Source: a virus. From it: a stretch of 39,208 nucleotides of DNA. The stretch lies in IMG/VR virus record IMGVR_UViG_3300045988_042900, positions 1-39,208 of that record. One strand, 5' to 3'. Within the stretch, counting starts at the first letter, position 1. Every line of letters begins with the position of its first letter. Made by a program: the position numbers and the translations under genes. The notes under the pieces are model-generated. The model saw only the letters and a program-made list of their open reading frames with translations. It was not told the DNA's origin and did no database searches. Below are positions 3,293-37,268 of the stretch, piece by piece.

Positions 3293-4618
3293 TTAAATAT
3301 AGCCAACTAATTCAAAATTTATTTCGCCGTCGTTGCTGACGGAGATTTTTTTAACGGTACGCCTCCAAAACTCACGGCGCTCTGACGGCTCTAAACCACC
3401 GTAAACGTTCATCGTGGATTTCAGTGCATCTACATCTATTTGCTCCTTTTCTTCCGGCTCCGGGGCTTCTAACTGCTTTCTGAGCGATGTGTAGTCCTTT
3501 ACGTATACGTCGCGCTCTATCAAGTCGGACAGGTACAGGTCTTTGAGTTTTTCCATTTTGCGCCTTATCGCCGCCTTGTCTACAGTTGGCTGATTGGATG
3601 CGTTCTGCTGGGCGACCTCTACATTGTAGCCGATGCATCCGGATATGATGTGATCTACCATGTACTGCTCCAGATCGTCTTCACGCTCCCGGCGGCGATG
3701 GACGCAGGAGCGGCCTGCATAGCTTGGGCACTTGTAGTACACGTATTCGCCACCGTGGACGTGGGACATGGTGCCGGACAGGCGACGACCACACTCGGCA
3801 CAGAACACTATACCGGTAAATAGATATATATGCCTTTGCGTAAAATCTCCGCTGTGACGGGTGGAACGCTCTGCCATGATGGACTGAGCAAGGGCAAAAT
3901 CCTGCGGTGGGACGATGGGCGGGTATAACTGCTCACCGTTATCTGCAACGCCAATATACCGCTTATTTTTGAGCATCTGCTTTGTGTTTTTATAGGAGCG
4001 GGTGATACCATACTCGGACAGGAGATAGCGCCCAGTTGAGGTGACGGATTGAGTGGCGATAAAATGCCGGAACACATCTCGGACAACAGGGGCAGTTTCA
4101 GGGTCTTCCACCAGTTTTCCTTTGACGATTTTTAGTCCAAGCGGTTGCGTGCCGTGATGGCACAGGCCATTCTCCCGCTTATTCTTGTTTATGGTTTTGA
4201 TTCGTTCTGATGTACGGTCAGCCTCCGATTCAGCAACCGATAGCATGATGTTGACCTTAAATCTTCCGGCGCTAGTCTCTGTCTCATACTCCTCCTCAAT
4301 CGTTTTCCAGCAGACGCGGTGTTCGTCCAAAACGTCCTGAACTTTATAATATTCTTTGACATTTCGGAACCACCGGTCTAGCTTGGTAAATACAATCATC
4401 TCAATTTTATCAGCTCTAACATCGTTCAAAAGCCGCTGCAAATCCGGACGCTTTGATGCTGGCTTTCTGGCTGAGATTCCGGCATCAACGTACACGTCCA
4501 CTATCGTATGATGGTTTTCGTTTGCCCATTTTTTCAAATTTTCCTGCTGCACCCCGATTGACAAGCCATGTATGGCCTGCTCCTCCGTGGACACTCGCGC
4601 ATACAGCGCTACACGCAT
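3293..4618 (-). CDS. Large serine recombinase (phage integrase)
   Basis: The N-terminus MRVALYARVSTEEQ is the resolvase catalytic Ser motif. A recombinase domain, a Cys zinc ribbon (CAECGRRL...YYKCPSY...C) and a C-terminal coiled coil follow. The RBS is GGAGGA. Confidence 0.9.
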   Translation of the reverse strand: MRVALYARVSTEEQAIHGLSIGVQQENLKKWANENHHTIVDVYVDAGISARKPASKRPDLQRLLNDVRADKIEMIVFTKLDRWFRNVKEYYKVQDVLDEHRVCWKTIEEEYETETSAGRFKVNIMLSVAESEADRTSERIKTINKNKRENGLCHHGTQPLGLKIVKGKLVEDPETAPVVRDVFRHFIATQSVTSTGRYLLSEYGITRSYKNTKQMLKNKRYIGVADNGEQLYPPIVPPQDFALAQSIMAERSTRHSGDFTQRHIYLFTGIVFCAECGRRLSGTMSHVHGGEYVYYKCPSYAGRSCVHRRREREDDLEQYMVDHIISGCIGYNVEVAQQNASNQPTVDKAAIRRKMEKLKDLYLSDLIERDVYVKDYTSLRKQLEAPEPEEKEQIDVDALKSTMNVYGGLEPSERREFWRRTVKKISVSNDGEINFELVGYI

Positions 4619-10890: not shown

Positions 10891-11529
10891 GTGAAAAAAA
10901 TCACCGATGTCCCGAACGAGTACCTCGAAGAAATGGACTGCTTGAGTGACGCAGAGTTCGGAAGACTAATCAGGGGGCTGTTACAATACAGCATTACTGG
11001 TGTGGAGCCCGATCTTAAAGGCACGGAACGGCTGTTTTGGAAGACGGTACGCAATCGGGAAGATAGGTTTGCGGAGGCGTATACGCAGAGATGCGCCACA
11101 CAGAAAGAAAACGGTAAAAAAGGTGGCAGACCGAAAAACCCACCGGTTATTTTGGAAAACCCAAAAAACCCACGGGTTTTTTCAGAAACCCAAAAAACCC
11201 AACTGAACAGAACAGAACTGAACAGAACAGAACTGAACAGAACTGAACTGGGGAATAAAGGGGCGCATGACGCGCCCACTCGCCACCGCTATGGCGAATA
11301 TGAAAACGTCCTCTTGACGGATGATGAGCTGGGAAAGCTAAAAAACGAGTTCCCGTCTGACTGGCAGGAGCGGATTGAGCGGCTCAGTGGGTACATTGCA
11401 TCGAGTGGGAAAAAATACAAGAGCCACCTGGCTACCATCCGTAACTGGGCGAGAAAAGAAAAGCCCACAGCAAACAACGGGGGCCTCATCATGGGCATTA
11501 ACCCGGACGAATTGGAGGGGATATTTTGA
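10891..11529 (+). CDS. Replisome-organizer-like / DUF6291-like replication protein
   Basis: The start is GTG with RBS AGGAGGA. Motifs include NGKKGGRPKNP, and YGEYENVLLTDDE...KKYKSHLATIRNWARKE in the C-terminal half. Iteron-like repeats are embedded in the gene. Confidence 0.6.
   Translation: MKKITDVPNEYLEEMDCLSDAEFGRLIRGLLQYSITGVEPDLKGTERLFWKTVRNREDRFAEAYTQRCATQKENGKKGGRPKNPPVILENPKNPRVFSETQKTQLNRTELNRTELNRTELGNKGAHDAPTRHRYGEYENVLLTDDELGKLKNEFPSDWQERIERLSGYIASSGKKYKSHLATIRNWARKEKPTANNGGLIMGINPDELEGIF
11131..11250 (+). repeat. Iteron-like repeat cluster inside the replication gene (candidate ori)
   Basis: There are four AAAAACCCA-type units (two extend to AAAAACCCAC(C/G)GGTT). They are followed by about 3 x 15-bp CTGAACAGAACAGAA tandem units at 11203-11250, which encode (NRTEL)3. 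Confidence 0.6.
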
Positions 11530-12681: not shown

Positions 12682-13278
12682 ATGAAAAAGTTGCATATCA
12701 AGCTCACATTTACCGCTCCCGTGCTGGGAACCAGCCCCGCCAACGAGGACATTTACCGCGATTTTATCGGGAGCAAGGCCCCGGACGCTGCCAGCGTGGA
12801 GGACGAGATTGCAGCACTGGGCGCAGATGCCGTGATTGAGAAGGGCATGACCGTGTTCCCCCGCACGGAGGACGGCAGACCATTTTTCTACGACTACCAG
12901 ATTAAGGGATTTTTCGAGGATTCCTGCGGTGGGCTGCGGAAAGTCACTGGCTCTGAGTCCAGCAAAATCAAAGCCTATAAAAAGGAGATTGACAAGCTGA
13001 TTTTCCCACAGCCCCGCCAAATCCCCATCAGCTTTGAGGGAGAAATTGGGAAATGCGAACGGCCGCTGAGAGCAGCCACCGCCCAGGGCGAACGGATCAG
13101 CCTTGCCTGCTCCGAGCAGATTCCCGCTGGCGCGACCTGTGAGTTTGACGTGGTGCTCCTGAGTGACAGCCATGAGAAAGCCCTCCGTGAATGGTTGGAC
13201 TACGGTTGCCTGAGCGGAATCGGGCAGTGGCGGAACTCCGGAATGGGCAGATTTACTTGGGAGGAAATCCCCCAATAA
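12682..13278 (+). CDS. Uncharacterised protein with a C-terminal GhGxxxxxGhG (RAMP/Cas6-like) glycine loop
   Basis: The RBS is GGAGGA. The N-terminal strand is KLHIKLTFTAPVLG. The C-terminus GIGQWRNSGMGRF fits the Cas6-type G-rich loop pattern. The family assignment is unverified. Confidence 0.7.
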   Translation: MKKLHIKLTFTAPVLGTSPANEDIYRDFIGSKAPDAASVEDEIAALGADAVIEKGMTVFPRTEDGRPFFYDYQIKGFFEDSCGGLRKVTGSESSKIKAYKKEIDKLIFPQPRQIPISFEGEIGKCERPLRAATAQGERISLACSEQIPAGATCEFDVVLLSDSHEKALREWLDYGCLSGIGQWRNSGMGRFTWEEIPQ

Positions 13279-13879
13279 GCAACGGCATTGCCCTGAAACG
13301 CGCCGAGCTGATACGCAATGGCATGGAATAGCTCAGACGTGCTAGGCAACGGAATGGCACCGCTTCCAAACGCAAAGGAGTAGAACAGTACGCCAATGCC
13401 GAGCAAAGGAAATGCGCAGCCTAGATTCGCGCCGAAGCGCAAAGGAATTGAATTGAACCGCTTGGAATCGAAACTGCAATGGAATTGCATGGGAAAGCGG
13501 CGAAAAGCTACGAGGAGAAGAGCATGGCAATGGCATTGCGGATCAAAGATGTGATATGCAACGGAACGGCACAGCGCGCTGCAAGGGAGAAGCATAGAGA
13601 AGTCCAGAGAAGCGGAGCGAAGGAGGTGCATAGAACCGTTATGCATGGTGATACTTTGATCTGGGCAATGAACGGCATGGCGATGGATAAGCAAGGCAAT
13701 GAACGGCATGGCGATGGATAAGCAGGGAATGGCTCAGAGACGCAAAGACCCGCAAAGGGGTTGGACAGCATGGCTATGAGCGGCAACGCCAGGGAAATGC
13801 GACGACCTGCACGGCAAAGATGAGCAAAGGAACAGGTATGCATTGAACTGGACTACAATTACCAAATGGAGGAATCAAA
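13279..13879 (+). repeat. 600-bp noncoding, purine-rich motif array (12 x GCAANGG, mostly GCAANGGAA/T)
   Basis: The motif starts at 13279, 13315, 13346, 13372, 13403, 13439, 13476, 13527, 13558, 13581, 13752 and 13824, commonly 26-37 nt apart. No ORF here has an RBS. Short hairpins include GCAATGGCATTGC and TGCAATGGAATTGCA. Confidence 0.8.
13664..13724 (+). repeat. Perfect 30-nt direct repeat x2 (31-nt period)
   Basis: GGCAATGAACGGCATGGCGATGGATAAGCA occurs at 13664-13693 and 13695-13724. Confidence 0.9.
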
Positions 13880-14209
13880 ATGAAAACAATCACAATTAAC
13901 GAGGTGGGCTGGGACTTGCACCTCCTGTATCGGGAGGCAATCCAGACCAAGGCACGCCGGGGGCTATTTGGATATATGCTCCGGACGGGCCGGGCTGATA
14001 ACCTGATTTTCGGCGGTGCTTTCCAGCTGCTCAAACAGCTGGAGCCGGTCTGGGGTAAGGAGGCTTACAGCCTCCGCCCCGAGACTTCGGCGGCACGGGA
14101 AATAATCGCTGTTACTGAGGTTGCTCTTGCGGGTGGATTTGATCGGTTCGCGCTTTCACGCCGGGAGATGCAGCGGACGATTAGAGCACTGGACGATATT
14201 GAGATTTAG
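13880..14209 (+). CDS. Hypothetical protein
   Basis: GGAGGA sits 7 nt before the ATG. Confidence 0.65.
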   Translation: MKTITINEVGWDLHLLYREAIQTKARRGLFGYMLRTGRADNLIFGGAFQLLKQLEPVWGKEAYSLRPETSAAREIIAVTEVALAGGFDRFALSRREMQRTIRALDDIEI

Positions 14210-14222
14210 GAGGCGCATTATT

Positions 14223-14561
14223 GTGGATTACATTGACCGTCATGACGCAATCGTGGCACTGAGGAAATTTGCGGAGAGCTGCAAGGGCAGCTCTGAGGCC
14301 GCAACCGCTGTATCCGTGGCTATCTCGGTGCTGTCTCGGGTGCCGTCTCCGTGGGCGGATGCCAACACCAGGCCACCGGAAAAGACGGGCGAGTATCTGT
14401 GTGTTTTTAAGTACAGACAGGCACCATGGGCTGATGTGTTTATGGACAAGATGACCTATTGTGCATCCCCCAGTCACAGCGGGTTTGAGGCGTGGCGCGG
14501 GCAGGTTGTTTCTCACTGGATGCCGCTCCCAGACCTGCCGAAGGGCCGGGAGGAGAAATAG
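14223..14561 (+). CDS. DUF551-like phage protein
   Basis: AGGAGG at 14208-14213 precedes the GTG at 14223. The C-terminus VSHWMPLPDLPK is typical of DUF551. Confidence 0.6.
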   Translation: MDYIDRHDAIVALRKFAESCKGSSEAATAVSVAISVLSRVPSPWADANTRPPEKTGEYLCVFKYRQAPWADVFMDKMTYCASPSHSGFEAWRGQVVSHWMPLPDLPKGREEK

Positions 14562-14562
14562 A

Positions 14563-15228
14563 ATGCCGGTTTTGATAGCTTGTGAGGAATCCCAGACCGA
14601 GTGCATGGCGTTCCGCGCCCTGGGGATTGAGGCGTACAGCTGCGATATACAGGAGCCAAGCGGCGGGCACCCTGAGTGGCACATCTTGGGGGATGCATTG
14701 GAAGCCATGAGGGGGGGACAGATAACCACCATGGACGGACAGATGCATGATATCCATGGGTGGGATTTGATGATCGCACATCCGCCCTGTACATATCTCA
14801 GCAACGCCGGGGCAGCGAGGCTGTATAAAAGAATTGACGGGGAATCGTATGTACGCTTAAAACGCCTGGAAAAGGGTTTGGATGCGAGAGAGTTTTTTAT
14901 GAAATTCCTAGAGGCAGATATACCGAAAATTGCGGTAGAAAACCCAATTCCGTCAGGAGTTTATAGGCTCCCGAAGTACGACCAAATCATACAACCATAC
15001 GAATTTGGGCACCCATACAGCAAGAAAACGTGCCTCTGGCTAAAGGGGCTGCCTAAACTCATGGCGACAGACATAGTGGAGCCGGTATGCTCTTGGGTGA
15101 GTGGCGGAAGCAAGAAAGCTGACGGAAGCAAGAGAGATAATCAAGGGACAACGTTTAGAGACAGCAAAAAACGGTCAAAGTCATTTTCCGGGATCGCCCG
15201 GGCAATGGCGGAACAGTGGGGGAGGTAG
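14563..15228 (+). CDS. C5-cytosine-methyltransferase-like protein lacking the canonical FxGxG SAM loop
   Basis: IAHPPCTYLSNAG resembles motif IV (PC). KIAVENP resembles motif VI (ENV). The N-terminus VLIACEESQ stands where FxGxG is expected. The RBS is GGGAGGAG. Confidence 0.6.
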   Translation: MPVLIACEESQTECMAFRALGIEAYSCDIQEPSGGHPEWHILGDALEAMRGGQITTMDGQMHDIHGWDLMIAHPPCTYLSNAGAARLYKRIDGESYVRLKRLEKGLDAREFFMKFLEADIPKIAVENPIPSGVYRLPKYDQIIQPYEFGHPYSKKTCLWLKGLPKLMATDIVEPVCSWVSGGSKKADGSKRDNQGTTFRDSKKRSKSFSGIARAMAEQWGR

Positions 15229-15232: not shown

Positions 15233-15376
15233 ATGAGCTACACTGAGGCATTGCGAATTGTAACCGAGTACTCAATTGCACTGAGCATGGGCTATGCGCT
15301 GGATAAAGACTGCTACCTTGAGTACGCCGAAGCGTTGCGGGTCGTGCTCCAGCGGGCGGAACAGGAGACAATATGA
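15233..15376 (+). CDS. 47-aa hypothetical protein
   Basis: The RBS is GGGGGAGG. The stop overlaps the next start as ATATGA. Confidence 0.45.
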   Translation: MSYTEALRIVTEYSIALSMGYALDKDCYLEYAEALRVVLQRAEQETI

Positions 15377-16257
15377 GCGAATGGTATGATGAGAGCCTTG
15401 ACAGGCTTAGGACGGCGGCGCGGCTGTCAGAACAGTATTACAAAAAGCAGCTGGTGGTTACCACGTCCGGCGGCAAAGACAGCTCTGTATGTGTTGATTT
15501 GGCTATCAAGGCTGGGATCAATTTTGAGGTGATCCATAACCACACCACGGCTGACGCTCCGGAGACAGTCCGATTTGTCAGGGAAGAGTTCCGGCGGCTG
15601 GAGCTGATGGGGGTTAAATGCACAATCAACTACCCCATGTACAAGGGGCAGCGCACATCCATGTGGGATTTGATCCCGCAGAAGCTCATGCCGCCTACAC
15701 GACTGGTGCGGTATTGCTGTGAGGTGCTCAAAGAGCACGGTGGCACTGGGAGATTTATCACAACCGGCGTGCGGTGGGCAGAATCTACCGCCCGGAAGAA
15801 CAACCGTGGGGCATTTGAACAGTTTCACCGCAACAAAGAAAAGCGGATCATCATCAACGATAACGACCCGGATCGCCTCCTGTTTGAAAACTGTTCCATC
15901 AAAGCAAAACGAGTTTGCAATCCAATCATTGACTGGGAGGACGAGGACGTATGGCACTACATCGACGAAAACCATGTGCCGATGAACCCTCTGTATGCAG
16001 AGGGGCTTGGCCGGGTTGGGTGCATCGGGTGCCCTTTAGCCGGAAAACACAAACGCGAGACAGAATTTGCCCGCTGGCCAAAGTACAAGACGGCATATAT
16101 ATCGGCTTTTGATCGGATGATCGCAGAGAGGAAACGCCGTGGAAAGATGGAGGGCACGTGGAACATGGGCACTACCGGAACCGATGTGTTTAACTGGTGG
16201 ATGGAGTACGATGTGCTGCCGGGGCAAATCGGAATGGAGGATGTGCTATATGAGTAA
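15373..16257 (+). CDS. PAPS-reductase/PP-loop ATPase family protein (DndC/IbrA-like)
   Basis: The PP-loop is VVTTSGGKDSSV. There is a C-terminal Cys cluster (CIGCPLAG). Confidence 0.8.
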   Translation: MSEWYDESLDRLRTAARLSEQYYKKQLVVTTSGGKDSSVCVDLAIKAGINFEVIHNHTTADAPETVRFVREEFRRLELMGVKCTINYPMYKGQRTSMWDLIPQKLMPPTRLVRYCCEVLKEHGGTGRFITTGVRWAESTARKNNRGAFEQFHRNKEKRIIINDNDPDRLLFENCSIKAKRVCNPIIDWEDEDVWHYIDENHVPMNPLYAEGLGRVGCIGCPLAGKHKRETEFARWPKYKTAYISAFDRMIAERKRRGKMEGTWNMGTTGTDVFNWWMEYDVLPGQIGMEDVLYE

Positions 16258-17846: not shown

Positions 17847-17997
17847 CAAGATAGAGCGCGGCACACCTCTCAACGATGTGCAACAGGCCGCGACATAATG
17901 CCCTCTACGGGCAAAGCGTAAGCCTGTGACGCATCAGGGCACCGCTAGCTCCCGGCGGGGTACAAATAGGGAGCGCAAAAACGGAGGAATGTATGCG

Positions 17998-19125
17998 ATG
18001 GAGATACAATACAGGCGGCTAAGCGAGATCACGCCGTATGATAAAAACGCAAAGACCCACGACCAGACACAGATCAACAACGTTGCGGAGAGCATCCGAC
18101 AGTATGGCTTTGTGCAGCCGATTGTGGTTGACCGAGATAGAGTTATTGTGATCGGGCACTGTAGGGCATTGGCGGCGAAGGAGCTAGGCATGAAAGAGGT
18201 GCCTTGCGTCTGCGTGGACGATCTGACCCCGGAGCAGGTGACCGCCTTGCGACTGGTGGATAACAAGAGCAACGAAAGCGACTGGGACTTTGACCTGCTG
18301 GCTGATGAGCTGCCGGGGCTTGACCTGTCCGCTTTTGACTTTGACTGGGGCCTGCCGGAAGACCAAACGGAAGACGTTGTTGAGGACGAAGCACCGGAAG
18401 TCGACGAAGAATCGGAGCCCATTACCAAGATGGGTGATATTTGGCAGCTCGGGCGGCACCGACTTGTGTGCGGCGACAGCACCGACAAGGAAGCCGTGGA
18501 ATTGCTGATGGATGGCAAGAAAGCGGATATGGTGTTTACTGATCCACCGTATGGCGTAGATTACGAGGGGATAAACAACGACAGCAGAAGCGGGCTTGAA
18601 GATTTGCTGACATCTGCTTTTGAGAATTATAAAGAAAATTGTATTGATGGTGCAAGCGTGTATTGTTTCCATAGCGACAAGTGTGCGGATATTTTCCACG
18701 CAGTTTTTCGTTCTTTCTGCCACTTTTCTTCGATGATTATCTGGGAGAAGCAAAGCCTTGTTTTGTCGCAGGGAGATTATCAGTCTATTCACGAACCTTG
18801 CCTTTATGGTTGGTTTGATAATGGAACGCATAGATTTTTTGGAGATAGAAAGCAGACCTCTGTTTGGAAGTTTGACAGAAAATCCGTTTATGGTCACACC
18901 ACACCAAAGCCGATTGGATTTATTTGCAAGGCTATAGAAAATAGCAGTAAAAAGAATGAAAAAGTGCTTGACTTGTTTGGAGGTAGCGGTTCGACCCTTA
19001 TCGCTTGTGAACAGTTAGACCGCACTTGCCACATGATGGAACTTGACCCAAAGTATTGCGATGTCATTATCGAACGATGGGAAAACCTTACAGGGGAAAA
19101 GGCGGTGCTTCTGCATGACGATTGA
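17998..19125 (+). CDS. ParB-like nuclease domain fused to an N6A/N4C DNA methyltransferase
   Basis: The N-terminus is ParB-like (LSEITPYDKNAKTHD...IVIGHCRALAAKELG). Motif IV is TDPPYGVDY and motif I is DLFGGSGST. GGAGG sits 10 nt before the ATG at 17998. Confidence 0.85.
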   Translation: MEIQYRRLSEITPYDKNAKTHDQTQINNVAESIRQYGFVQPIVVDRDRVIVIGHCRALAAKELGMKEVPCVCVDDLTPEQVTALRLVDNKSNESDWDFDLLADELPGLDLSAFDFDWGLPEDQTEDVVEDEAPEVDEESEPITKMGDIWQLGRHRLVCGDSTDKEAVELLMDGKKADMVFTDPPYGVDYEGINNDSRSGLEDLLTSAFENYKENCIDGASVYCFHSDKCADIFHAVFRSFCHFSSMIIWEKQSLVLSQGDYQSIHEPCLYGWFDNGTHRFFGDRKQTSVWKFDRKSVYGHTTPKPIGFICKAIENSSKKNEKVLDLFGGSGSTLIACEQLDRTCHMMELDPKYCDVIIERWENLTGEKAVLLHDD

Positions 19126-19291: not shown

Positions 19292-19589
19292 GGAAATCTG
19301 CGGATGGTTTGATGTGACCGATAAAACATTGGATAGCTGGTGCAAGCGCACCTACCATGCAAGTTTTTCCGAGGTATTTAAGCAAAAGCGAGGTAAGGGG
19401 AAAATTTCACTGCGGAGAAACCAGTGGCGGATTGCAGAGAAAAATGCAACAATGGCAATCTGGCTGGGCAAACAGTACCTAGGCCAGCGCGACGTGGTAG
19501 AGCAGACAATCGCCGTTGACACCGTCAAGGACGATGCACTCAGCCAGAGCCTCCGAGAGCTTGCAGATGGCTTAAAGTCCGATGATTAG
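19221..19589 (+). CDS. terS: Terminase small subunit
   Basis: The HTH pattern MARPRKEIDQKQFENLCGLQCTLEEI...SLRRNQWRIAEKNATMAIWLGKQYLGQ is typical. The gene lies immediately upstream of terL. Confidence 0.8.
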   Translation: MARPRKEIDQKQFENLCGLQCTLEEICGWFDVTDKTLDSWCKRTYHASFSEVFKQKRGKGKISLRRNQWRIAEKNATMAIWLGKQYLGQRDVVEQTIAVDTVKDDALSQSLRELADGLKSDD

Positions 19590-20817
19590 CGCAAAGCAAA
19601 AGCAGATTCTGGCTTTCCCGTACTCAAAATATGACGCGCTGATATGTGATGGCGCTGTACGATCCGGCAAAACGTCTGTGATGATATGGGCTTTTGTGGA
19701 TTGGGCCATGCGAGAGTTTGACGGACAGCGATTCGGGGTCTGCGGCAAAACTGTGGATTCTGCCTCTAAAAATATCATTGTGCCTTTTATCTCGATGACG
19801 TTGGCAAAGGAACGGTATGCGCTCAAATGGCGGCGTGCTGATCGAATATTAGAGGTAAGGAGGGGCCAACACGTCAACTATTTTGAGGTGTTTGGTGGCA
19901 AGGATGAAAGCTCGTTTATGTTGATTCAGGGCCGGACGATGGCCGGAGTGTTGCTGGACGAGGTGGCACTCATGCCGCAGAGTTTTGTTAATCAGGCTCT
20001 TACCCGATGCTCTGTAGATGGGGCACGGTATTGGTTTAGCTGCAACCCTTCAAACCCGCAACACTGGTTTTACCTGGACTGGATACAAAACCACGACAAG
20101 CATAACGCCCTGTATCTGCGGTTTGCAATGACCGATAACCCTAGCCTCAGTGATAAGACACTGCAGCGGTATCAGACCATGTATAGCGGCGTGTTTTACG
20201 ACCGGTATATCAGGGGATTGTGGGTAGCCGCTGAGGGCCTGATCTATGATATGTTTGGGGACGATAACATTACGGACGAGACCCCAACAAAGGGCGAATG
20301 GTATATAAGCTGTGACTACGGCACACTTAACCCGTTTTCTGCTGGCCTTTGGTGTTGGGATGGGAAAACCGCAACAAGAGTGCGGGAATATTACTATTCG
20401 GGGCGAGAAAATCGCGCGAATAAGACGGACGAGGAGTATTACCATGAAATGGAGACCCTGGCGGGAGAACAAAACATACGCGCAGTCGTGGTCGACCCCT
20501 CGGCGGCTAGCTTTATCGAGACAATACGGAGACATAGACGCTTTGTGGTCAGAAAAGCAGTCAACGATGTTGTCCCAGGAATCACAACAACTCAGCGATA
20601 CCTAGCGGATGGCACGATCAAGATACACCGGAGCTGCAAGGATGCAATCCGGGAGTTTGGCCTATATCGGTGGGACGATAAAGCCACCGATGACAAGCCC
20701 GTCAAGGAGAACGACCACGCGATGGACGATATCCGCTATTTTGTAATGACAATTCTCCGGCACAAAGTGGGAAGGCCGGAATATAAACCGCTTTGGAACG
20801 GAGGGATAGGCCATTAA
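19582..20817 (+). CDS. terL: Terminase large subunit (PBSX/Terminase_3-like)
   Basis: The Walker A motif is CDGAVRSGKTS. There is a C-terminal nuclease-like region (HAMDDIRY). Confidence 0.9.
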   Translation: MISAKQKQILAFPYSKYDALICDGAVRSGKTSVMIWAFVDWAMREFDGQRFGVCGKTVDSASKNIIVPFISMTLAKERYALKWRRADRILEVRRGQHVNYFEVFGGKDESSFMLIQGRTMAGVLLDEVALMPQSFVNQALTRCSVDGARYWFSCNPSNPQHWFYLDWIQNHDKHNALYLRFAMTDNPSLSDKTLQRYQTMYSGVFYDRYIRGLWVAAEGLIYDMFGDDNITDETPTKGEWYISCDYGTLNPFSAGLWCWDGKTATRVREYYYSGRENRANKTDEEYYHEMETLAGEQNIRAVVVDPSAASFIETIRRHRRFVVRKAVNDVVPGITTTQRYLADGTIKIHRSCKDAIREFGLYRWDDKATDDKPVKENDHAMDDIRYFVMTILRHKVGRPEYKPLWNGGIGH

Positions 20818-20830
20818 GACATACCAGGAT

Positions 20831-22171
20831 TTGCTTGCAGTGGGCGACAACGAAAAAGAGCGGATGCGATTTATCCGGGCGGCAATCGACGAGCATAAAA
20901 GCAGCACTGAGTACCGGATTGCATTTGATGCGGAAGAATATGACCGGCAGCGGAATGTGACCATTTGCCGGTACCAGAAGTTTCTATATACGCTGTCCGG
21001 GCAGGCTGTGCCGGACAACTACAGCGCCAACTACAAGCTGGCCTCCAACTTTTTCAACCGGTTTGTGACCCAAGAAAATCAATACCTCTTGGGAAATGGC
21101 GTGATGCTGGAGGACAGTAAGCACAAAGAGGCGCTGGGCCAGGATTTCGACAACAAGCTGCAAAACATGGGGCGGAATGCACTGGTACAGGGTGTGAGCT
21201 TCGGCCTGTGGAATCTGGATCATCTGGACGTGTTCAAGCTGACGGAATTTGTGCCGCTCTATGACGAGGAAACCGGCGCGTTAATGGCTGGAATCCGCTT
21301 TTGGCAGATTGACGCAGACAAGCCGCTTCGGGCTGTCCTCTATGAGACGGACGGGTATACCGACTATGTCAGACCAAAAAATGATGATATGCAGGTCAAA
21401 AGGGAGAAGCAGCCATACAAGTTGATACGTCAAAAGTCGGAGGCTTGCGCGGAGGAAGTCCTGCACGGCGAAAACTACCCAGGGTTTCCCATCGTCCCAA
21501 TGTGGGGCAACCCACACCATCAGAGCGAGCTTGTGGGCCTGCGGCAGAGTATTGACGCTTACGACCTGATAAAATCCGGTTTTGCCAACGACCTGGACGA
21601 TGCGGCGACGATCTACTGGATCATCAACAACGCCGGTGGCATGGATGATCTGGACATGGCGCAGTTTTTGGAGCGGCTGAAAACCGTAAAAGCCGCCGCG
21701 CTTAATGCGGATGATGGAGTGTCGGCGGAAGCGCACACCATCGAGGTGCCGTATGAGAGCCGGGTGGCGTACCTACAGAGGCTGGAGAGCGATATGTACA
21801 AGGACTACCAGGCGTTGGATGTTACTAACCTGGTAGGCGGCGAAAAGACTACCGTGGAGATCAAGGCGGCGTATCAGCCGCTTGACAACAAAGCAGATCA
21901 GTTTGAATACTGCGTTCTGGATTTCCTCCGGAGGCTATTTGAGATCGTCGGGATTGATGACAACCCGACATTCCAGCGCAACCAGATTGCAAACCTATCA
22001 GAGCAGACACAAATGGTGCTAATGGCTGCTGAATATCTGGACGAGGAAATGTTGCTCAAAAAACTGCCCTGGCTGACTGCTGAGGAAATCGAAGATATGC
22101 AAAAACGCAAGGCGGCTGATGAAGCAGGCCGTATCATTGCAGGGCCGGTGATTGACGATGGCAACAGCTGA
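20831..22171 (+). CDS. Portal protein (SPP1 gp6-like)
   Basis: The size and the position after terL support the call. The start codon is uncertain (TTG at 20831, no clear RBS). Confidence 0.8.
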   Translation: MLAVGDNEKERMRFIRAAIDEHKSSTEYRIAFDAEEYDRQRNVTICRYQKFLYTLSGQAVPDNYSANYKLASNFFNRFVTQENQYLLGNGVMLEDSKHKEALGQDFDNKLQNMGRNALVQGVSFGLWNLDHLDVFKLTEFVPLYDEETGALMAGIRFWQIDADKPLRAVLYETDGYTDYVRPKNDDMQVKREKQPYKLIRQKSEACAEEVLHGENYPGFPIVPMWGNPHHQSELVGLRQSIDAYDLIKSGFANDLDDAATIYWIINNAGGMDDLDMAQFLERLKTVKAAALNADDGVSAEAHTIEVPYESRVAYLQRLESDMYKDYQALDVTNLVGGEKTTVEIKAAYQPLDNKADQFEYCVLDFLRRLFEIVGIDDNPTFQRNQIANLSEQTQMVLMAAEYLDEEMLLKKLPWLTAEEIEDMQKRKAADEAGRIIAGPVIDDGNS

Positions 22172-23159
22172 TCTAGGGCATAAATTAGCGGATCAGGAAC
22201 TTGCAAAACTCGAACAGCGGATATCCCAAGTGTATGGCGATGCAGCTGCGGAGCTATCAGAAACCATTGATGCATATTTCGAATCGTTCCGGCAACGGGA
22301 CGAGGAAATGAAAAAGCTGCTCCAACGTGGCGAGATCACCAAGGCGCACTATAACCAGTGGAGGTTAAACCAGATTGGGCGCGGCGAACGCTATAAGCAG
22401 TTGCGCGATAAGATCGCCGAGCGTATGACTGACGCGACGGAGACTGCTACCAGCTACATCAACGATGTAACCCCTGGTATATACAGCCTCAACCGCAACT
22501 GGACGGCATACGAAATTGAGAAGGTTACCGGGAATGCCGACTTTACGCTTTGGAATGAGCAGGCTGTAAAAAGGCTCATAAAAGACAACCCAGATATGCT
22601 GCTGTATTACCCCGGCGACATAGCGATAAAATACGGGGATCACGTCAAATGGATCCGCGAATGCGTCGGGAAGACGATAATAAGTGCCATTTTGCAGGGC
22701 AAGAGCATCACTAAAATTGCAAACGAGTTACAGCAGAAGATCCCAGGCCTTAACAGGAACTTTGCGATAGGGACGGCCCGGACTGCAATAACCAATGCTC
22801 AGAATGCAGGGCGGCAAGATCAATATCTGCTTGCAAAGCAAATGGGTATTAAAGTTAAAAAGCGCTGGTTTGCCACACTGGACGGGCGAACCCGTCATGC
22901 TCACGCCATGGCGGATGGCCAAACGGTTGACGTTGATGCAGATTTTGACGTTGACGGCTATAAAATGACATATCCAGGAGATAGGCGTGCACCTGGATAT
23001 TTGCTCTATAATTGCCGCTGCACTATGCGGACGGTTGAGCCGGAAGGCATAGGGCTAGAACCAAGGCAGCGAGTAGCCAAAGACCCGGAGACCGGAAGAA
23101 ACATCTTGATCTCCGATATGACATACCAAGAGTGGCTGAGATGGAAGGAGGGCCAATAA
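22158..23159 (+). CDS. Head morphogenesis protein (SPP1 gp7 / Mu F-like)
   Basis: Motifs include ARTAITNAQNAGRQ, WFATLDGRTRHAHAMADGQ and YNCRCTM. Confidence 0.8.
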   Translation: MATADLGHKLADQELAKLEQRISQVYGDAAAELSETIDAYFESFRQRDEEMKKLLQRGEITKAHYNQWRLNQIGRGERYKQLRDKIAERMTDATETATSYINDVTPGIYSLNRNWTAYEIEKVTGNADFTLWNEQAVKRLIKDNPDMLLYYPGDIAIKYGDHVKWIRECVGKTIISAILQGKSITKIANELQQKIPGLNRNFAIGTARTAITNAQNAGRQDQYLLAKQMGIKVKKRWFATLDGRTRHAHAMADGQTVDVDADFDVDGYKMTYPGDRRAPGYLLYNCRCTMRTVEPEGIGLEPRQRVAKDPETGRNILISDMTYQEWLRWKEGQ

Positions 23160-23560
23160 TGGCGGAGATTAAAATCACTAGCCATGCGGCTGAAACACTA
23201 TTTGCACTCCGCTCGGCGTGCAACCGTGCCTTGGAGCGTTGCGGCATGCAGGCTGAGGGGTATGCACAAGCCGCGTGCCCTGTAGATACCGGCGCGCTTA
23301 GAAACTCCATTACTCACAAGGTCGTGGACAGCGAAAAGGCGGTATATGTCGGAACCAACCAGGAATACGGCGTATATGTTGAGATGGGCACCGGCAAATA
23401 CGTTTCCGGTGGCAGGCCCACGCCATGGGCATACCAGGATGCACAGGGCCGGTGGCACATGACACACGGCCAGAGGGCACAGCCTTACATCAAACCCGCT
23501 GTAGCTGACCATATTGGCACATACCAAAATATTATCAAGGATGCGATGCAGAGTGGATGA
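23159..23560 (+). CDS. HK97 gp10-family protein
   Basis: The motif PVDTGALRNSI is present. The start overlaps the previous stop as TAATG, with RBS GGAAGGAGGG. Confidence 0.65.
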   Translation: MAEIKITSHAAETLFALRSACNRALERCGMQAEGYAQAACPVDTGALRNSITHKVVDSEKAVYVGTNQEYGVYVEMGTGKYVSGGRPTPWAYQDAQGRWHMTHGQRAQPYIKPAVADHIGTYQNIIKDAMQSG

Positions 23561-23684
23561 TAAGATCATCGAAGCAATCCAGGCAATTATCCAGCGCGGC
23601 AATGACGTGGAGATACGCCGGAAGGGCAACGGCTATGTCGTGCTAGAGGTAAAAAAGACAATCAAATATACGACTCCCGCGTAA
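23553..23684 (+). CDS. 43-aa hypothetical protein (DDKIIEAIQAIIQRGNDVEIRRKGNGYVVLEVKKTIKY...)
   Basis: The start is GTG, overlapping the previous gene's end. The translation looks protein-like. It is under 60 aa and so absent from the track. Confidence 0.4.
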   Translation: MDDKIIEAIQAIIQRGNDVEIRRKGNGYVVLEVKKTIKYTTPA

Positions 23685-23707
23685 TTGGGCGCGGGAAAGG
23701 GCAATAG

Positions 23708-23749
23708 GAGCCAACTACTAAGGATTTTTTAGTGGTTGGCTCTTTTTTA
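23708..23749 (+). terminator. Rho-independent terminator
   Basis: A 12-bp stem (GAGCCAACTACT/AGTGGTTGGCTC, one G-U pair) is followed by TTTTTTAT. Confidence 0.8.
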
Positions 23750-23833
23750 TTTGGCAAAATCCGCGAGGCAATGCGGTTTTGATATCACAGTCGCCCCCGA
23801 AGGAATGGGGCCGAAGAAAAGGAGACTGAAACA

Positions 23834-24436
23834 ATGGCACTTACCAGAAAATTACTCAAAGGCATGGGTCTCACCGAGGAACAGATGGACACCATCATTG
23901 AGGCACACACTGATACCGTGGACGGCCTGAAAACGCAGGTTGCTACCTATAAGGCTGATGCGGAGAAGCTGCCTAGCGTCCAAAAGGAGCTGGACGATCT
24001 AAAGGCAGATGGCGACGGCGGCTACAAGGAGAAGTACGATAAAGAGCACAGCGCCTTTGAAACGTACAAATCTGAAATCGCCAAGAAGGAGGCCAAAAGC
24101 GCCAAGGAATCGGCGGTAAAGGCTTACTACGAAAGCAAGGGAATCACCGGCAACGGTCTGGAGATTGCTATGCGCGGCTCTAATGCGGAGATTGATGCGG
24201 TAGAGCTGGAGGACGGCAAGATCAAGGATACGGCAGCTCTTGACGCTCTGGTAAGCGGCACCTTTAAGGGGCTGGTTTCCACCACCACCACCACTGGGGC
24301 AAATACTGCTACACCACCGACAAGCACCGGCGGCGGAAAAACTAAGGACGAAATCATGCAGATCAAGGATCGCGCTGAACGTCGTGCTGCAATCGCCGCC
24401 AACATGAATCTATTTACTGACCAGAATGGAGGCTAA
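23834..24436 (+). CDS. Capsid scaffolding protein
   Basis: The product is a charged coiled coil with a Thr/Gly linker. The gene lies directly upstream of the major capsid gene. Confidence 0.75.
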   Translation: MALTRKLLKGMGLTEEQMDTIIEAHTDTVDGLKTQVATYKADAEKLPSVQKELDDLKADGDGGYKEKYDKEHSAFETYKSEIAKKEAKSAKESAVKAYYESKGITGNGLEIAMRGSNAEIDAVELEDGKIKDTAALDALVSGTFKGLVSTTTTTGANTATPPTSTGGGKTKDEIMQIKDRAERRAAIAANMNLFTDQNGG

Positions 24437-24439
24437 TCA

Positions 24440-25582
24440 ATGGCTGAAAACAACATTATCAAAAAGACCGACCTTACAAGAGTGCGTGAAATCGAATTTA
24501 CCGAGATGTTTGGCTACTCGGTCAAAAAGCTGGTTGAGGCACTTGGCATCACCCGCAAGATCGCAAAGCAGGCTGGCACCGTGCTCAAGAGCTATAAGGC
24601 TACCGGAACCCTGGAAAACGGCAATGTTGGCGAGGGCGAAACCATCCCCCTGAGCCACTACAAGACTGAGGCGGTGGACTACAAGGAAATCACCCTCAAA
24701 AAGTGGCGCAAGGCAACCACTGCGGAGGCAATCACCGACAGAGGGTATGACCAGGCTGTGCAGATGACCACCGATGAGATGCTCAAGGACGTACAGAAGG
24801 GCATCCGCAAGGATTTCTTCGATTTTATGGCGACTGGCACCGGCTCTGTGTCCGGCAGCGATTTCCAGGCTGTACTTGCTCAGGCGTGGGGTAATCTCCA
24901 GGTGCTCTTTGAGGACGACGAGGTAAGCGCCGTGTATTTCATCAATCCTCTGGACGTTGCGGATTACCTGTCCAAGGCAAATATCACCGTGCAGACTGCA
25001 TTCGGCATGAGCTACGTTGAGAATTTTCTCGGTCTCGGCACGCTCTTTATGAATTCCAGCGTCCCCAAGGGCACCGTGTATGCTACCGTTAAGGACAACC
25101 TGGTGCTGTACTACATCCCAGTCAACGGTGCCGATCTCAACGAGGTATTCTCCTTTACCAGCGACTCCACCGGCTATATCGGCATCCACGAGGAGGCAGA
25201 TTACACCAACATGACTGCGTCCGATACCGTAATCAACGGCATGGAGCTGTTTGCCGAGCTGATTGACGGCGTAGTCGTTGGCAATATCGGCACCGGCACT
25301 CTGGGCACCCTGACCGTGACCTCTGCCTCTGGCACTGCAAGCGGAGATACCAAGCTCACTGTGTCCCCGGCAAAAACCAAGAAGGGCAACAAGTACAAGT
25401 ACGCAACCGATTCGACCACCGCCCCGGCTGTTGCCTACTATGACAACGTTGCGGCATGGAGCGACTGGGATGGCAAGAGCGACCTGACCATCGCAAGCAG
25501 CCAGAAGGTCACTGTGGTTGAGTGCGACGGCAATTACCATGCGCTCAAAAGCGGCAACGCTACTGTTACCGCCAAAACCTGA
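24440..25582 (+). CDS. Major capsid protein with a C-terminal Ig-like extension
   Basis: The RBS is strong, and position and size fit. The C-terminus TLTVTSASGTASGDTKLTVSP... looks like a Big_2-type domain. Confidence 0.8.
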   Translation: MAENNIIKKTDLTRVREIEFTEMFGYSVKKLVEALGITRKIAKQAGTVLKSYKATGTLENGNVGEGETIPLSHYKTEAVDYKEITLKKWRKATTAEAITDRGYDQAVQMTTDEMLKDVQKGIRKDFFDFMATGTGSVSGSDFQAVLAQAWGNLQVLFEDDEVSAVYFINPLDVADYLSKANITVQTAFGMSYVENFLGLGTLFMNSSVPKGTVYATVKDNLVLYYIPVNGADLNEVFSFTSDSTGYIGIHEEADYTNMTASDTVINGMELFAELIDGVVVGNIGTGTLGTLTVTSASGTASGDTKLTVSPAKTKKGNKYKYATDSTTAPAVAYYDNVAAWSDWDGKSDLTIASSQKVTVVECDGNYHALKSGNATVTAKT

Positions 25583-25597
25583 TAAGGAGGCAACGCA

Positions 25598-26101
25598 ATG
25601 CTGGAAGAAATCCTGAGAACCTGCAACAACTGGTTTTTGGTGCCGGATGGCATCCACACCGGTACGTTTTCCGTCGATGGTGGCAGCATTGCGTTGCCAT
25701 TTTTGACAGATGGCCAGTATTTCAGGGTTGTCGGCTCTGTTTTTAACGACGGCGTTTACCAGTATCCACCCTCTGTGGTGGAGCTGGTGGACGAAACGTT
25801 TGACGGCGCTATCTGGGCGCTTGCTATTCCCAAATCTGTTGTTGATTTGTCGGAGCGGGTGAAGGAGTGGAACGAAAAATACCGGGCCACAGCTGCCGGG
25901 CCGTATCAGTCCGAGAGCTTTGGCGGCTACAGCTATTCCAAGGCGACCGACCCAAAGACCGGTGGAACCGCGACATGGAAAACTGCATTTGCTGATGAGC
26001 TTTCCCGGTGGCGCAAAATTGGGAACCCGGCAAAGGATGTGCCCAAGCAGAGCACCACATGGTATCGCAGGCCCTACAACCCAGACAATCCGTGGAGGTG
26101 A
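25598..26101 (+). CDS. Head-tail connector/completion protein (assigned by position)
   Basis: The RBS is AAGGAGG. This is the first gene after the capsid gene. Confidence 0.45.
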   Translation: MLEEILRTCNNWFLVPDGIHTGTFSVDGGSIALPFLTDGQYFRVVGSVFNDGVYQYPPSVVELVDETFDGAIWALAIPKSVVDLSERVKEWNEKYRATAAGPYQSESFGGYSYSKATDPKTGGTATWKTAFADELSRWRKIGNPAKDVPKQSTTWYRRPYNPDNPWR

Positions 26102-26105
26102 AGAC

Positions 26106-26456
26106 ATGAGCCTACTGGATGATTTTGGGCGAAAATGTTGCCTAATGGAAAAACGCCGAACCCCGGACGGTGCTGGAGGCTGGGATGTGCAATGGGTGGA
26201 TGGCGCAGAGTTTGTCAACTACCAGGCCCTGGACACGTCCATGGAGGCCAGGAGAGCGGAAAAAGATGGAGTAACTTCCGTGTATTCCGCCCTGGTTAAA
26301 AAATCTCTGCCCATCGAGTACAACGATGCTTTTAAGGATTTGGCTACCGGTACCACATACCGGGTTACTTCCAGGCCGGAGGACAAGGCGGCCCCAGCTA
26401 GCGCAAGCTTTGACCTTAAATTCTTCACTGCGGAGAGGTGGGCACTTACCTCATGA
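26106..26456 (+). CDS. Head-tail adaptor / head closure protein
   Basis: The call rests on size and sequence pattern (DGAGGWDVQW...YRVTS) and on position. Confidence 0.5.
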   Translation: MSLLDDFGRKCCLMEKRRTPDGAGGWDVQWVDGAEFVNYQALDTSMEARRAEKDGVTSVYSALVKKSLPIEYNDAFKDLATGTTYRVTSRPEDKAAPASASFDLKFFTAERWALTS

Positions 26457-26821
26457 CCAAAGACAAAGCGCTATATGCGTGGTTTAACGAGTTTATGCCG
26501 TTCTACCCTGCATCATCCGTGCCGGATGACGTGATTTTCCCGTACGGCACATACACCCTTGCTACCGGGGCTTTTGGAGCCGACCCGGTAAGCCTTACCG
26601 TCAACCTCTGGTTTTATACGGAATCGGAGGCGGCACCAAACCAAAAGGCGCAGGAGCTTTCTGAGCGCATCGGGAGAGGTGGAGTGCTGATCCCGTGTGA
26701 CGGTGGGGCGGTATGGCTCAAACGCGGCGCACCGTGGTGCCAGAGCCTTGTGGACGAGGCAGACCACGGCATTAAGCGACGGTACATTAACATTACTGCT
26801 GAGTATTTTACTCAGGATTAA
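26453..26821 (+). CDS. Tail completion/terminator-like protein (assigned by position)
   Basis: The start overlaps the previous stop as ATGA. The gene precedes the major tail protein. Confidence 0.45.
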   Translation: MTKDKALYAWFNEFMPFYPASSVPDDVIFPYGTYTLATGAFGADPVSLTVNLWFYTESEAAPNQKAQELSERIGRGGVLIPCDGGAVWLKRGAPWCQSLVDEADHGIKRRYINITAEYFTQD

Positions 26822-26830
26822 GGAGGACAT

Positions 26831-27412: not shown

Positions 27413-27415
27413 ATC

Positions 27416-33376: not shown

Positions 33377-33377
33377 T

Positions 33378-36513: not shown

Positions 36514-36516
36514 TCA

Positions 36517-37250: not shown

Positions 37251-37268
37251 CGAAGGGGGACAAGTAAC

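What the first reader, a model, noticed from the sequence alone, without database searches (positions are those of the whole stretch)
13279..13879. 600-bp noncoding array of GCAANGG(A) motifs with about 31-nt phasing
No plausible ORF exists between 13278 and 13880; the track ORFs here lack an RBS and look non-protein-like. GCAANGG occurs 12 times in about 550 bp, where about 0.1 would be expected by chance. Near-variants add to this (GCAATGA x2, GCAAAGA x2, GCAGGGA). Successive spacings are mostly 26-37 nt, which is roughly three helical turns. A perfect 30-nt unit is duplicated at 13664-13724. The plus strand is purine-rich and carries more than 20 GGA triplets, most in an A(N)GGA context. 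Several sit in loops of short hairpins (TGCAAT-GGA-ATTGCA at 13475-13489; GCAAT-GGC-ATTGC at 13527-13539). Possible roles: (i) a phased DNA-binding array such as an origin, centromere-like site or nucleoprotein scaffold; (ii) an RNA sponge for a GGA-binding protein of the CsrA type, embedded in the early transcript; (iii) a substrate or binding platform for the upstream RAMP-like protein.
Basis: seen in the sequence. Interest (0 to 1): 0.75.

Follow-up and report, generated by a model that had tools for sequence, protein, structure and literature searches.

The report
Phage VIPR guide-RNA repeat array
The 600-base "noncoding array" is a run of about 107 five-base repeats placed directly after a small CRISPR-like (RAMP) gene, which matches the recently described phage VIPR system, where such repeats form guide RNAs used to silence rival phages; it is real and functional, but an example of a kind reported in 2026 preprints, not a new one.

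Summary
The basic period, however, is 5 nt, not 31. Bases 13279-13838 (+) form about 107 tandem units of consensus G-(C/A)-N-N-N. G is present in 95% of units; 89 units are 5 nt and 16 are 6 nt. GCAANGG marks the sites where the register slips by +1, so modules are 5k+1 nt long (26, 31, 36 or 41 nt).

The upstream 198-aa protein (12682-13278) is a stand-alone, single-RRM RAMP with a Cas7/Csm3-like fold, a thumb hairpin and a G-loop. It is distantly but collinearly related to the tested Vipr protein of phage SUSP1.

All 49 related loci with an intact gene have a G-phased pentamer tract next to it on the coding strand: 43 downstream, 5 upstream, 1 on both sides. A sister phage that lost the gene also lost the array. 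Among close relatives G is nearly invariant, the other positions vary, and whole modules are swapped.

This matches VIPR (bioRxiv 10.64898/2026.04.26.720920 and .720927), in the published YNNNG/NNNNG repeat variant. RNA expression, filament formation and targets are inferred, and my target searches were inconclusive. Verdict: a new member of a known kind, of moderate interest.

The parts
12682..13278 (+). vipr-like gene: a 198-aa stand-alone single-RRM RAMP (Cas7/Csm3-like fold) with a thumb beta-hairpin (about residues 123-147) and a G-loop, GIGQWRNSGMGRF (residues 177-189)
   Evidence: AF2 model: pLDDT 85.6, pTM 0.79. The top 50 Foldseek PDB hits are all Csm3, type VII Cas7, Cmr4 or Cas7-11. 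The family profile hits type VII Cas7 and Csm4 at the G-loop. hhalign against the SUSP1 Vipr family gives E 5.9e-5 over 173 collinear columns. BLASTP against SUSP1 Vipr gives E 3e-4 over the full length. The window model and the SUSP1 Vipr model share the same six nearest neighbours in BFVD.
13279..13838 (+). Predicted vrRNA array: about 107 tandem units of G-(C/A)-N-N-N (89 of 5 nt, 16 of 6 nt). It starts at the first base after the vipr stop codon, with no promoter-like or terminator-like site between gene and array.
   Evidence: Autocorrelation. Cyclic-model parse: G 95%, C/A 86% at position 2; shuffled sequences score strongly negative. 60% of G have a G at +5, against 32% in resamples. 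No promoter-like or terminator-like sites. No Rfam match. The same kind of tract is present in 49 of 49 related loci.
13279..13830 (+). GCAANGG punctuation: 12 exact copies start at 13279, 13315, 13346, 13372, 13403, 13439, 13476, 13527, 13558, 13581, 13752 and 13824. Degenerate copies start at 13617, 13665, 13696, 13722, 13742 and 13814. Each marks a +1 register slip and delimits modules of 5k+1 nt.
   Evidence: Motif positions. Across 19 arrays, 74 of 115 inter-motif distances are 1 mod 5, with 26, 31, 36 and 41 nt the most common. Indels between close relatives begin and end at these motifs.
13664..13725 (+). Tandem duplication of one 31-nt module (six units plus one base), 30/31 identical, specific to this phage
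   Evidence: Absent from the aligned arrays of L005, L006, L007 and L037.
13839..13879 (+). Non-periodic leader and ribosome-binding site (AATTACCAAATGGAGGAATCAAA) of the next ORF (13880-14209). It marks the 3' boundary of the array and is not part of the repeat.
   Evidence: Conserved in L005, L006, L007, L037 and L041, while the array beside it varies.

Best explanation
This is a VIPR (Viral Interference Programmable Repeat) locus of a temperate siphovirus of gut Clostridia (Oscillospiraceae-type hosts). It has two parts: the 198-aa RAMP gene at 12682-13278, a Vipr homologue, and its guide-RNA array at 13279-13838. Proposed mechanism, by analogy with the SUSP1 and P. fulva systems: the array is transcribed with vipr as its 3' extension. 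Vipr protomers then bind the RNA, one per pentamer, and flip the conserved G (with the following C/A) into a pocket formed by the thumb and the G-loop. The variable bases are presented for gapped base pairing with double-stranded DNA of a competing phage or prophage, which is silenced. In this family only one G per unit is conserved. That fits the G-loop sequence Q-W-R here against D-W-R in SUSP1, and T17 here in place of H17. The two residues that read the first G in SUSP1 are replaced, while the Trp that stacks on the second G is kept. GCAANGG motifs, each adding one base, split the array into modules of 5-8 units, which are the units gained and lost in evolution and probably the individual guides. 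Shown here: the protein fold, the distant homology, the strict gene-array linkage, the strand-specific conserved G with variable other positions, and module turnover. Inferred: transcription and processing, filament formation, the pairing rule and the targets.
For: Protein fold:
- AF2 model with pLDDT 85.6.
- All top Foldseek PDB hits are Cas7-family backbone subunits.
- The G-loop matches type VII Cas7 and Csm4.

Link to a tested Vipr:
- SUSP1 Vipr (KT454805 28474-29061, minus strand) was located by the published residues H17, K33, R138 and D177-W178-R179.
- BLASTP is collinear over the full length, E 3e-4.
- Profile-profile comparison gives E 5.9e-5.
- The AF2 models of both proteins share the same six nearest BFVD neighbours and the same order of secondary-structure elements.

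Array:
- 5-nt period with G at 95% of units.
- SUSP1 control: its GGYNN tracts were recovered beside its vipr.

Linkage:
- 49 of 49 loci have the tract on the coding strand.
- In L041, vipr and the array were deleted together.

Evolution:
- Between 95-97% identical relatives, the G phase changes at 1-2 of 47-60 sites, other phases at 10-18%.
- Modules are replaced as cassettes; 70 of 75 distinct modules are unique to one array.

Literature: VIPR consists of a phage-encoded ~20 kDa RAMP plus pentanucleotide-repeat vrRNAs. Alternative repeats YNNNG and NNNNG and contiguous 'staggered' arrays are reported.

Context: the window is a phage genome with no cas genes.
Against: - Sequence similarity to validated Vipr proteins is weak. 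HMMER profiles of either family do not detect the other (E 0.1-1), and the hhalign probability is only 65%.
- The canonical GGY motif is absent.
- No conserved structured 3' tail, hammerhead ribozyme or per-guide promoter was found.
- No accessory (vap) gene is conserved next to the gene.
- A continuous array of ~107 units is longer than any single published vrRNA (up to 30 repeats).
- No target was found. A local search performed no better than shuffled guides, and five IMG/VR seed scans gave only chance-like hits.
- No expression data are available.
Confidence: 0.85

Rival explanations
1. A phased DNA-level protein-binding array: an iteron origin, a centromere-like site or a nucleoprotein scaffold read as double-stranded DNA.
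For: The tract consists of direct repeats. Twice the 5.17-nt period is 10.3 nt, close to the helical repeat of DNA. The locus lies just downstream of the replication module: replisome organizer and helicase loader.
Against: The signal is strictly strand-specific: G sits on the coding strand in 49 of 49 loci. Only one base per 5 nt is conserved and the rest is hypervariable, which does not fit a sequence-specific double-stranded DNA site. Array length ranges from about 90 to 800 nt, with cassette turnover. The tract follows the RAMP gene, not the replication genes, and sits upstream of it in 5 loci. No AT-rich unwinding element is present. A better origin candidate lies inside the replisome-organizer gene at 11140-11254.
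Confidence: 0.04
2. An RNA sponge for a GGA-binding regulator of the CsrA type, embedded in the early transcript.
For: There are 23 GGA triplets, some in the loops of short hairpins.
Against: GGA is not significantly enriched: 17 +/- 3.9 is expected from composition. The GGA triplets arise from the GCAAN-GG-A register slips. The RNA folds no better than shuffles (z = -0.39). The conserved feature is one G every 5 nt, not A(N)GGA in loops. This idea does not explain the obligate RAMP partner.
Confidence: 0.02
3. An anti-CRISPR decoy: a phage Cas7 mimic plus a repeat-like RNA that poisons host type III, type I or type VII effector complexes, analogous to RNA anti-CRISPRs (Racr).
For: The protein is structurally closest to Csm3 and type VII Cas7. 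Phages are known to encode CRISPR-repeat mimics (Racr, PMC10651486, listed).
Against: The array has a 5-nt unit, not the 6-nt Cas7 register, and does not resemble a CRISPR repeat with spacers. The hypervariable, module-swapping content fits a guide repertoire rather than a mimic of one fixed host repeat. The protein groups with SUSP1 Vipr and with the same viral structural neighbours.
Confidence: 0.05
4. Non-functional sequence: a decayed pseudogene or a slippage-generated pentanucleotide satellite.
For: There is no ORF with a ribosome-binding site. The repeats are degenerate, and the array sequence has no blastn match in the phage collection.
Against: The tract is kept next to the gene in 49 of 49 loci down to 51-56% protein identity, while its sequence is replaced. 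The periodic G is under purifying selection relative to the other phases. No related locus has a coding gene in its place.
Confidence: 0.02

Closest known systems
VIPR systems (Vipr protein + vrRNA), bioRxiv 10.64898/2026.04.26.720920 and 10.64898/2026.04.26.720927; reference locus Escherichia phage SUSP1 (type II)
   Same: Both have a phage-encoded, stand-alone RAMP of about 195-200 aa with one RRM, a helical-bundle insert, a thumb hairpin and a G-loop carrying W-R. Both have tandem pentanucleotide repeats on the coding strand in the intergenic DNA beside the gene, with conserved G and hypervariable other positions. Neither has cas genes or a CRISPR array. In both, arrays can lie upstream or downstream of the gene.
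   Different: - Only one G per unit is conserved (G-M-N-N-N, equivalent to the published YNNNG/NNNNG variants), not GGY.
- The G-loop reads Q-W-R instead of D-W-R, and H17 is replaced by T.
- The array is a single continuous tract of ~107 units that abuts the stop codon and is punctuated by GCAANGG every 5k+1 nt. SUSP1 has separate ~100-nt vrRNAs of 9-16 repeats, each with a pseudoknotted 3' tail.
- No conserved vap gene.
- Sequence similarity is detectable only by profile-profile or structure comparison.
- The hosts are gut Clostridia.
Class 1 CRISPR backbone subunits (Csm3, Cmr4, type VII Cas7) on crRNA
   Same: The RRM + thumb + G-loop fold is shared (Foldseek E about 5e-7, TM 0.52-0.58). 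The presumed mode is also shared: one protomer per short RNA segment, with the thumb flipping bases.
   Different: The RNA register is 5 nt instead of 6. There is no repeat-spacer array, no Cas5, Cas6, Cas10 or Cas11 partner and no adaptation genes, and the locus is viral. Residues equivalent to the Csm3 catalytic site were not examined.
TRAP-trp leader RNA (Bacillus)
   Same: Both involve an oligomeric protein reading a short conserved element repeated about every 5 nt in single-stranded RNA (comparison from general knowledge).
   Different: The fold is unrelated. TRAP reads 11 GAG/UAG triplets and regulates attenuation. There is no evidence for such a role here.
RNA anti-CRISPRs (Racr; PMC10651486)
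   Same: Both are phage-encoded non-coding RNAs that engage RAMP proteins.
   Different: Racrs are solitary mimics of host CRISPR repeats and have no dedicated phage RAMP. Here the RNA is a pentamer array with its own RAMP gene.

Membership tests
VIPR | Small stand-alone RAMP (single RRM, thumb, glycine-rich loop) outside any CRISPR-Cas locus | tested here: met
   AF2 model with pLDDT 85.6 and element order beta1, helical bundle, beta, alpha1, beta-hairpin thumb, alpha2, G-loop, beta4. Foldseek hits are Csm3, Cas7 and Cmr4 only. No cas genes were found among the window ORFs examined, which are phage genes. No CRISPR-type repeat was found in 13000-14200.
VIPR | Homology to an experimentally validated Vipr (SUSP1) | tested here: inconclusive
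   Collinear full-length BLASTP, 23% identity, E 3e-4 for the single comparison. hhalign of family profiles: E 5.9e-5, probability 65%. The AF2 models share the same top six BFVD neighbours. HMMER profile-to-sequence searches do not connect the families. Overall supportive but distant.
VIPR | Tandem pentanucleotide repeats next to vipr, on its strand, with conserved G positions | tested here: met
   About 107 units with G at 95%. Present in 49 of 49 loci, always with G on the coding strand.
VIPR | Canonical YNNGG (GGY/NN) consensus | tested here: not met
   The unit is G(95%)-C/A(86%)-N-N-N. G is depleted just before the conserved G (18% against a 33% background), except at GCAANGG. This corresponds to the alternative YNNNG/NNNNG repeats that the authors report for some types.
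VIPR | Non-G positions hypervariable between related systems (guide-like repertoire) | tested here: met
   Phase-specific substitution counts. Cassette indels. 70 of 75 distinct modules are unique to one array.
VIPR | Each vrRNA capped by a conserved structured 3' tail (type II), or separated by hammerhead ribozymes (some type I and V loci) | tested here: not met
   The tract is almost uninterrupted pentamers. No Rfam family matches even at E <= 1. Folding gives z = -0.39. The closest published architecture is the contiguous 'staggered array', whose figure could not be inspected.
VIPR | Accessory vap gene in the operon | tested here: not met
   Clustering of all neighbouring ORFs in 42 loci found no protein family that co-occurs with vipr. 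The flanking 272-aa and 109-aa genes persist in L041, which lacks vipr and the array.
VIPR | vrRNAs are expressed, processed and co-purify with Vipr as a helical filament | not testable with these tools
   Requires small-RNA sequencing, pull-down and cryo-EM.
VIPR | Guides match DNA targets in competing mobile elements under the 1-nt-skip rule | tested here: inconclusive
   The local 0.77-Mb search (both strands) did no better than shuffled guides. Five exact 9-unit seeds against IMG/VR gave 0, 0, 1, 5 and 7 hits with no extension. The pairing register for this family is unknown, and mismatch-tolerant searching was not possible.
CRISPR-Cas (type III / type VII) | Repeat-spacer array plus a multi-subunit effector (Cas5, Cas10, Cas11 or Cas14) | tested here: not met
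   Only a Cas7-like fold is present. There are no 25-40-nt repeats with unique spacers and no other cas genes.
CsrA/RsmA sponge RNA | Many A(N)GGA sites, enriched and presented in hairpin loops | tested here: not met
   23 GGA observed against 17 +/- 3.9 expected. No excess secondary structure.
Iteron origin / partition site | Sequence-conserved double-stranded DNA repeats of about 10-22 bp, linked to an initiator or ParB-type gene | tested here: not met
   Only one base per 5 nt is conserved, the signal is strand-specific, and the tract is linked to the RAMP gene rather than to replication genes.

The most novel reading that the evidence does not exclude
This very large gut-phage family (more than 1,700 clusters at 50% identity) could be a distinct VIPR type with its own code. 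It would have a one-G repeat read by a Q-W-R G-loop, three free bases per unit, and promoter-less arrays co-transcribed with vipr. A GCAANGG +1 register slip would cut these arrays into guides of 5-8 protomers, about one filament turn. That would imply a different guide-definition or processing mechanism, and possibly a different pairing rule from the published NN + 1-skip code.
Probability: 0.3. Interest if true: 0.7.

Novelty: new member of a known kind. Interest (0 to 1): 0.5.

Why it matters
VIPR is a newly described mode of RNA-guided DNA recognition and is proposed to be older than CRISPR. This locus indicates that a distant, very abundant branch exists in temperate phages of human-gut Clostridia, with a reduced repeat code and long punctuated arrays. 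The replacement of the residues that read the first G (D to Q, H to T) coincides with loss of that G from the repeat. This natural covariation supports the published recognition model. The 5k+1 modules offer a testable idea for how guides are delimited without tails or ribozymes. The arrays could also be decoded to map phage-phage conflicts in the gut.

Tried and rejected
- **Rfam:** no family matched, at gathering thresholds over the whole window or at E <= 1 over the region.
- **Protein libraries:** Pfam, PHROGs, NCBIfam, PADLOC and single-sequence PDB searches of the 198-aa protein gave nothing. Only the family profile and the structure gave a lead.
- **blastn of the array** against phage records gave no match.
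- **RNA folding:** no excess stability on either strand, so a large structured RNA was rejected.
- **Promoter and terminator scan:** nothing between the gene and the array.
- **Coding or recoded gene:** rejected because lag-3 autocorrelation is depleted and relatives show block indels.
- **Accessory gene:** none is conserved. The 109-aa downstream ORF is not part of the system, because it persists in L041.
- **Target search:** 15 combinations of pairing positions and skip length were tested against all fetched DNA. None was enriched over shuffled guides except trivial self-matches at period 5. Two perfect 8-9-unit local matches were low-complexity and out of codon phase. Five IMG/VR seed scans returned chance-like hits in unrelated low-GC environmental contigs.
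- **HMMER profile searches** between the two Vipr families were not significant.

Full report
**1. The observation**

Region 13279-13879 lies between the stop codon of a 198-aa ORF (12682-13278, +) and the start of a 109-aa ORF (13880-14209, +).

- GCAANGG occurs 12 times here and 25 times in the remaining 38.6 kb. Its reverse complement never occurs in the region.
- First-order Markov resamples give 0.88 copies on average, with a maximum of 5 in 2000.
- GGA is not significantly enriched: 23 observed against 17 +/- 3.9 expected.

**2. The real unit is a pentamer**

Autocorrelation shows peaks at 5, 10, 15/16, 21, 26, 31, 36 and 41 nt, with z up to 9, and a depletion at lag 3.

I trained a cyclic five-state model on 19 non-redundant arrays. 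It gives a unit of G (95%), C/A (53%/33%), A-rich N, N, N. Shuffled sequences score strongly negative.

- The window array parses into about 107 units: 89 of 5 nt and 16 of 6 nt.
- The most frequent 6-mers in the arrays are mostly of the form G-N-A-N-N-G.
- GCAANGG is the place where one extra base is inserted. Across the arrays, 74 of 115 distances between successive motifs are 1 mod 5, with 26, 31, 36 and 41 nt the most common.
- The periodic tract ends near 13838. The remaining 41 nt are the conserved leader and ribosome-binding site of the next gene.

**3. The upstream protein**

No Pfam, PHROG, NCBIfam or PADLOC family matches it. It nevertheless belongs to a very large uncharacterised family. 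More than 7,700 90%-identity clusters score E <= 0.001, and 1,732 50%-identity clusters do so.

- A profile of 42 members hits the G-rich loop of type VII Cas7 (E 4e-4) and of Csm4.
- An AlphaFold2 model (pLDDT 85.6, pTM 0.79) shows a single RRM, a small helical insert, a long beta-hairpin (the thumb) and a G-loop.
- Its top 50 Foldseek matches in the PDB are all Csm3, type VII Cas7, Cmr4 or Cas7-11 (E down to 5e-7, TM 0.52-0.58).
- A 65%-identical viral protein in BFVD is already labelled "Cas system-associated RAMP superfamily protein".

**4. Comparative genomics**

I fetched homologous loci from GenBank phage records (L001-L004), IMG/VR (L005-L041) and GTDB genomes (L043-L050). The genome hits are Oscillospiraceae, Lachnospiraceae, Peptococcaceae and other gut MAGs.

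- All 49 loci with an intact gene carry a G-phased pentamer tract directly beside it on the coding strand: 43 downstream (starting within a few bases of the stop codon), 5 upstream and 1 on both sides. Almost no such tract occurs elsewhere in the loci.
- Tract length ranges from about 90 to 800 nt.
- L041 is a sister phage that keeps both flanking genes. In it, vipr is cut after about codon 31 and joined to the last ~25 nt of the array. Gene and array were therefore lost together.
- No other gene is conserved next to the RAMP gene.
- Among phages whose RAMP is 95-97% identical, the arrays differ by whole-module insertions, deletions and replacements that begin and end at GCAA motifs, while the flanks are conserved.
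- In alignable blocks, the G phase changes at 1-2 of 47-60 sites and the other four phases at 10-18%.
- Of 75 distinct modules, 70 are unique to one array.

**5. Literature**

A full-text search led to two 2026 bioRxiv preprints on VIPR systems. They report:

- A phage-encoded RAMP of about 20 kDa (Vipr) oligomerises on vrRNAs made of tandem YNNGG pentamers, one protomer per repeat.
- The thumb and G-loop sequester GGY. The NN bases pair with double-stranded DNA, skipping every third target base.
- Targets are competing phages, and the outcome is transcriptional silencing.
- Seven types exist. Alternative repeats NNNGG, YNNNG and NNNNG occur. Arrays can be contiguous ("staggered"), ribozyme-separated or single. 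Accessory vap genes vary.

**6. Direct comparison with the reference system**

In SUSP1 (KT454805) I located vipr (28474-29061, minus strand) from the published residues H17, K33, R138 and D177-W178-R179. I also recovered its GGYNN tracts in both flanking intergenic regions.

- The window protein aligns to SUSP1 Vipr collinearly over the full length (23% identity, E 3e-4).
- Family profiles align with E 5.9e-5 over 173 columns.
- HMMER profile-to-sequence searches do not connect the families, so the relationship is distant.
- An AF2 model of SUSP1 Vipr (pLDDT 93) has the same order of secondary-structure elements. Its six best BFVD neighbours are the same six proteins as for the window model, including the window-family member A0A8S5R426 (E 2e-8).
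- The G-loop reads G-I-G-Q-W-R here and G-V-G-D-W-R in SUSP1, and H17 is T17 here.
- In SUSP1, H17 and D177 read the first G, while W178 stacks on the second. I infer that the single conserved G here corresponds to the second G. This is consistent with the published YNNNG variant.

**7. Mechanism proposed**

The array is co-transcribed with vipr. This is inferred from the absence of a promoter-like or terminator-like site and from the array starting at the stop codon. The RNA is then coated by Vipr protomers, one per pentamer, and the variable bases guide the filament to DNA of rival elements.

The GCAANGG +1 slips probably delimit individual guides of 5-8 units. Their role is inferred only from spacing and from indel boundaries.

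I could not find targets. A local search under 15 rules was no better than shuffled guides, and five exact-seed scans of IMG/VR gave only chance-like hits. Exact 9-unit seeds under one assumed register are a weak test.

**8. Rivals**

- *Origin or centromere DNA:* contradicted by the strand specificity, by the single conserved base per unit, by module turnover, and by linkage to the RAMP gene rather than to replication genes. A better origin candidate lies at 11140-11254.
- *CsrA sponge:* contradicted by the lack of GGA enrichment and of excess structure.
- *Anti-CRISPR decoy:* contradicted by the 5-nt register and the hypervariable content.
- *Junk or pseudogene:* contradicted by conservation of the architecture in 49 of 49 loci and by selection on the periodic G.

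**9. Verdict**

The locus is best filed as a VIPR system of a distant, gut-phage branch with a one-G repeat and a long punctuated array. The kind was described in 2026 preprints, so this is a new member of a known kind. I could not check whether this family is among the authors' 667 classified systems. Interest is moderate, at 0.5. The variant features (one-G code with a matching G-loop change, 5k+1 modules, no tail and no vap gene) are worth an experiment.

Noticed in passing
window 11140-11254: A perfect (GAACA/GAACT)x10 pentamer tandem at 11205-11254 lies inside the DUF6291/DnaD-like replisome-organizer ORF (10891-11529), where it encodes NRTEL x3. It is preceded by AAACCCAAAAAACCCA-type repeats. 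This is probably the phage replication origin. Its unit happens to fit the G-M-A-N-N pattern of the array.
   Followed up: partly
L041 2960-3160 (IMGVR_UViG_3300045988_041547): A sister phage keeps the 272-aa and 109-aa flanking genes, but vipr is truncated after about codon 31 and fused to the last ~25 nt of the array. This is a natural joint deletion of gene and array.
   Followed up: yes
L004 2521-3000; L009 2641-3000; L035 2221-3000; L036 2131-2950; L050 about 2010-2400; L044 both sides: In these more divergent loci the pentamer array lies upstream of the RAMP gene, or on both sides of it, on the same strand.
   Followed up: yes
BFVD entries A7WKN2 (Betalipothrixvirus pezzuloense) and A0A0A0P750 (Los Azufres archaeal virus 2): Two archaeal-virus proteins are among the shared structural neighbours of both the window protein and SUSP1 Vipr (E about 1e-3 to 4e-3). 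This is consistent with Vipr-like RAMPs in archaeal viruses.
   Followed up: no
window 14461-15228, 15373-16257, 17926-19125: Three genes of DNA-modification type lie just downstream of the locus: a DNA methyltransferase, a PAPS-reductase-like protein and a ParB-like/methyltransferase fusion.
   Followed up: no
window 3293-4618 (-), 19582-38469 (+): The window is a near-complete temperate siphovirus-type genome. It encodes a serine integrase, large terminase, portal, major head protein, tape measure protein and endolysin. No cas genes were seen.
   Followed up: partly
L006 array units 65-73 against L033 4088-4114: This is an 18/18 match under the rule 'positions 4-5, 1-nt skip', at the start of an ORF in another Vipr-carrying phage. 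It is A-rich, low in complexity and out of codon-wobble phase, so it was judged to be chance.
   Followed up: partly
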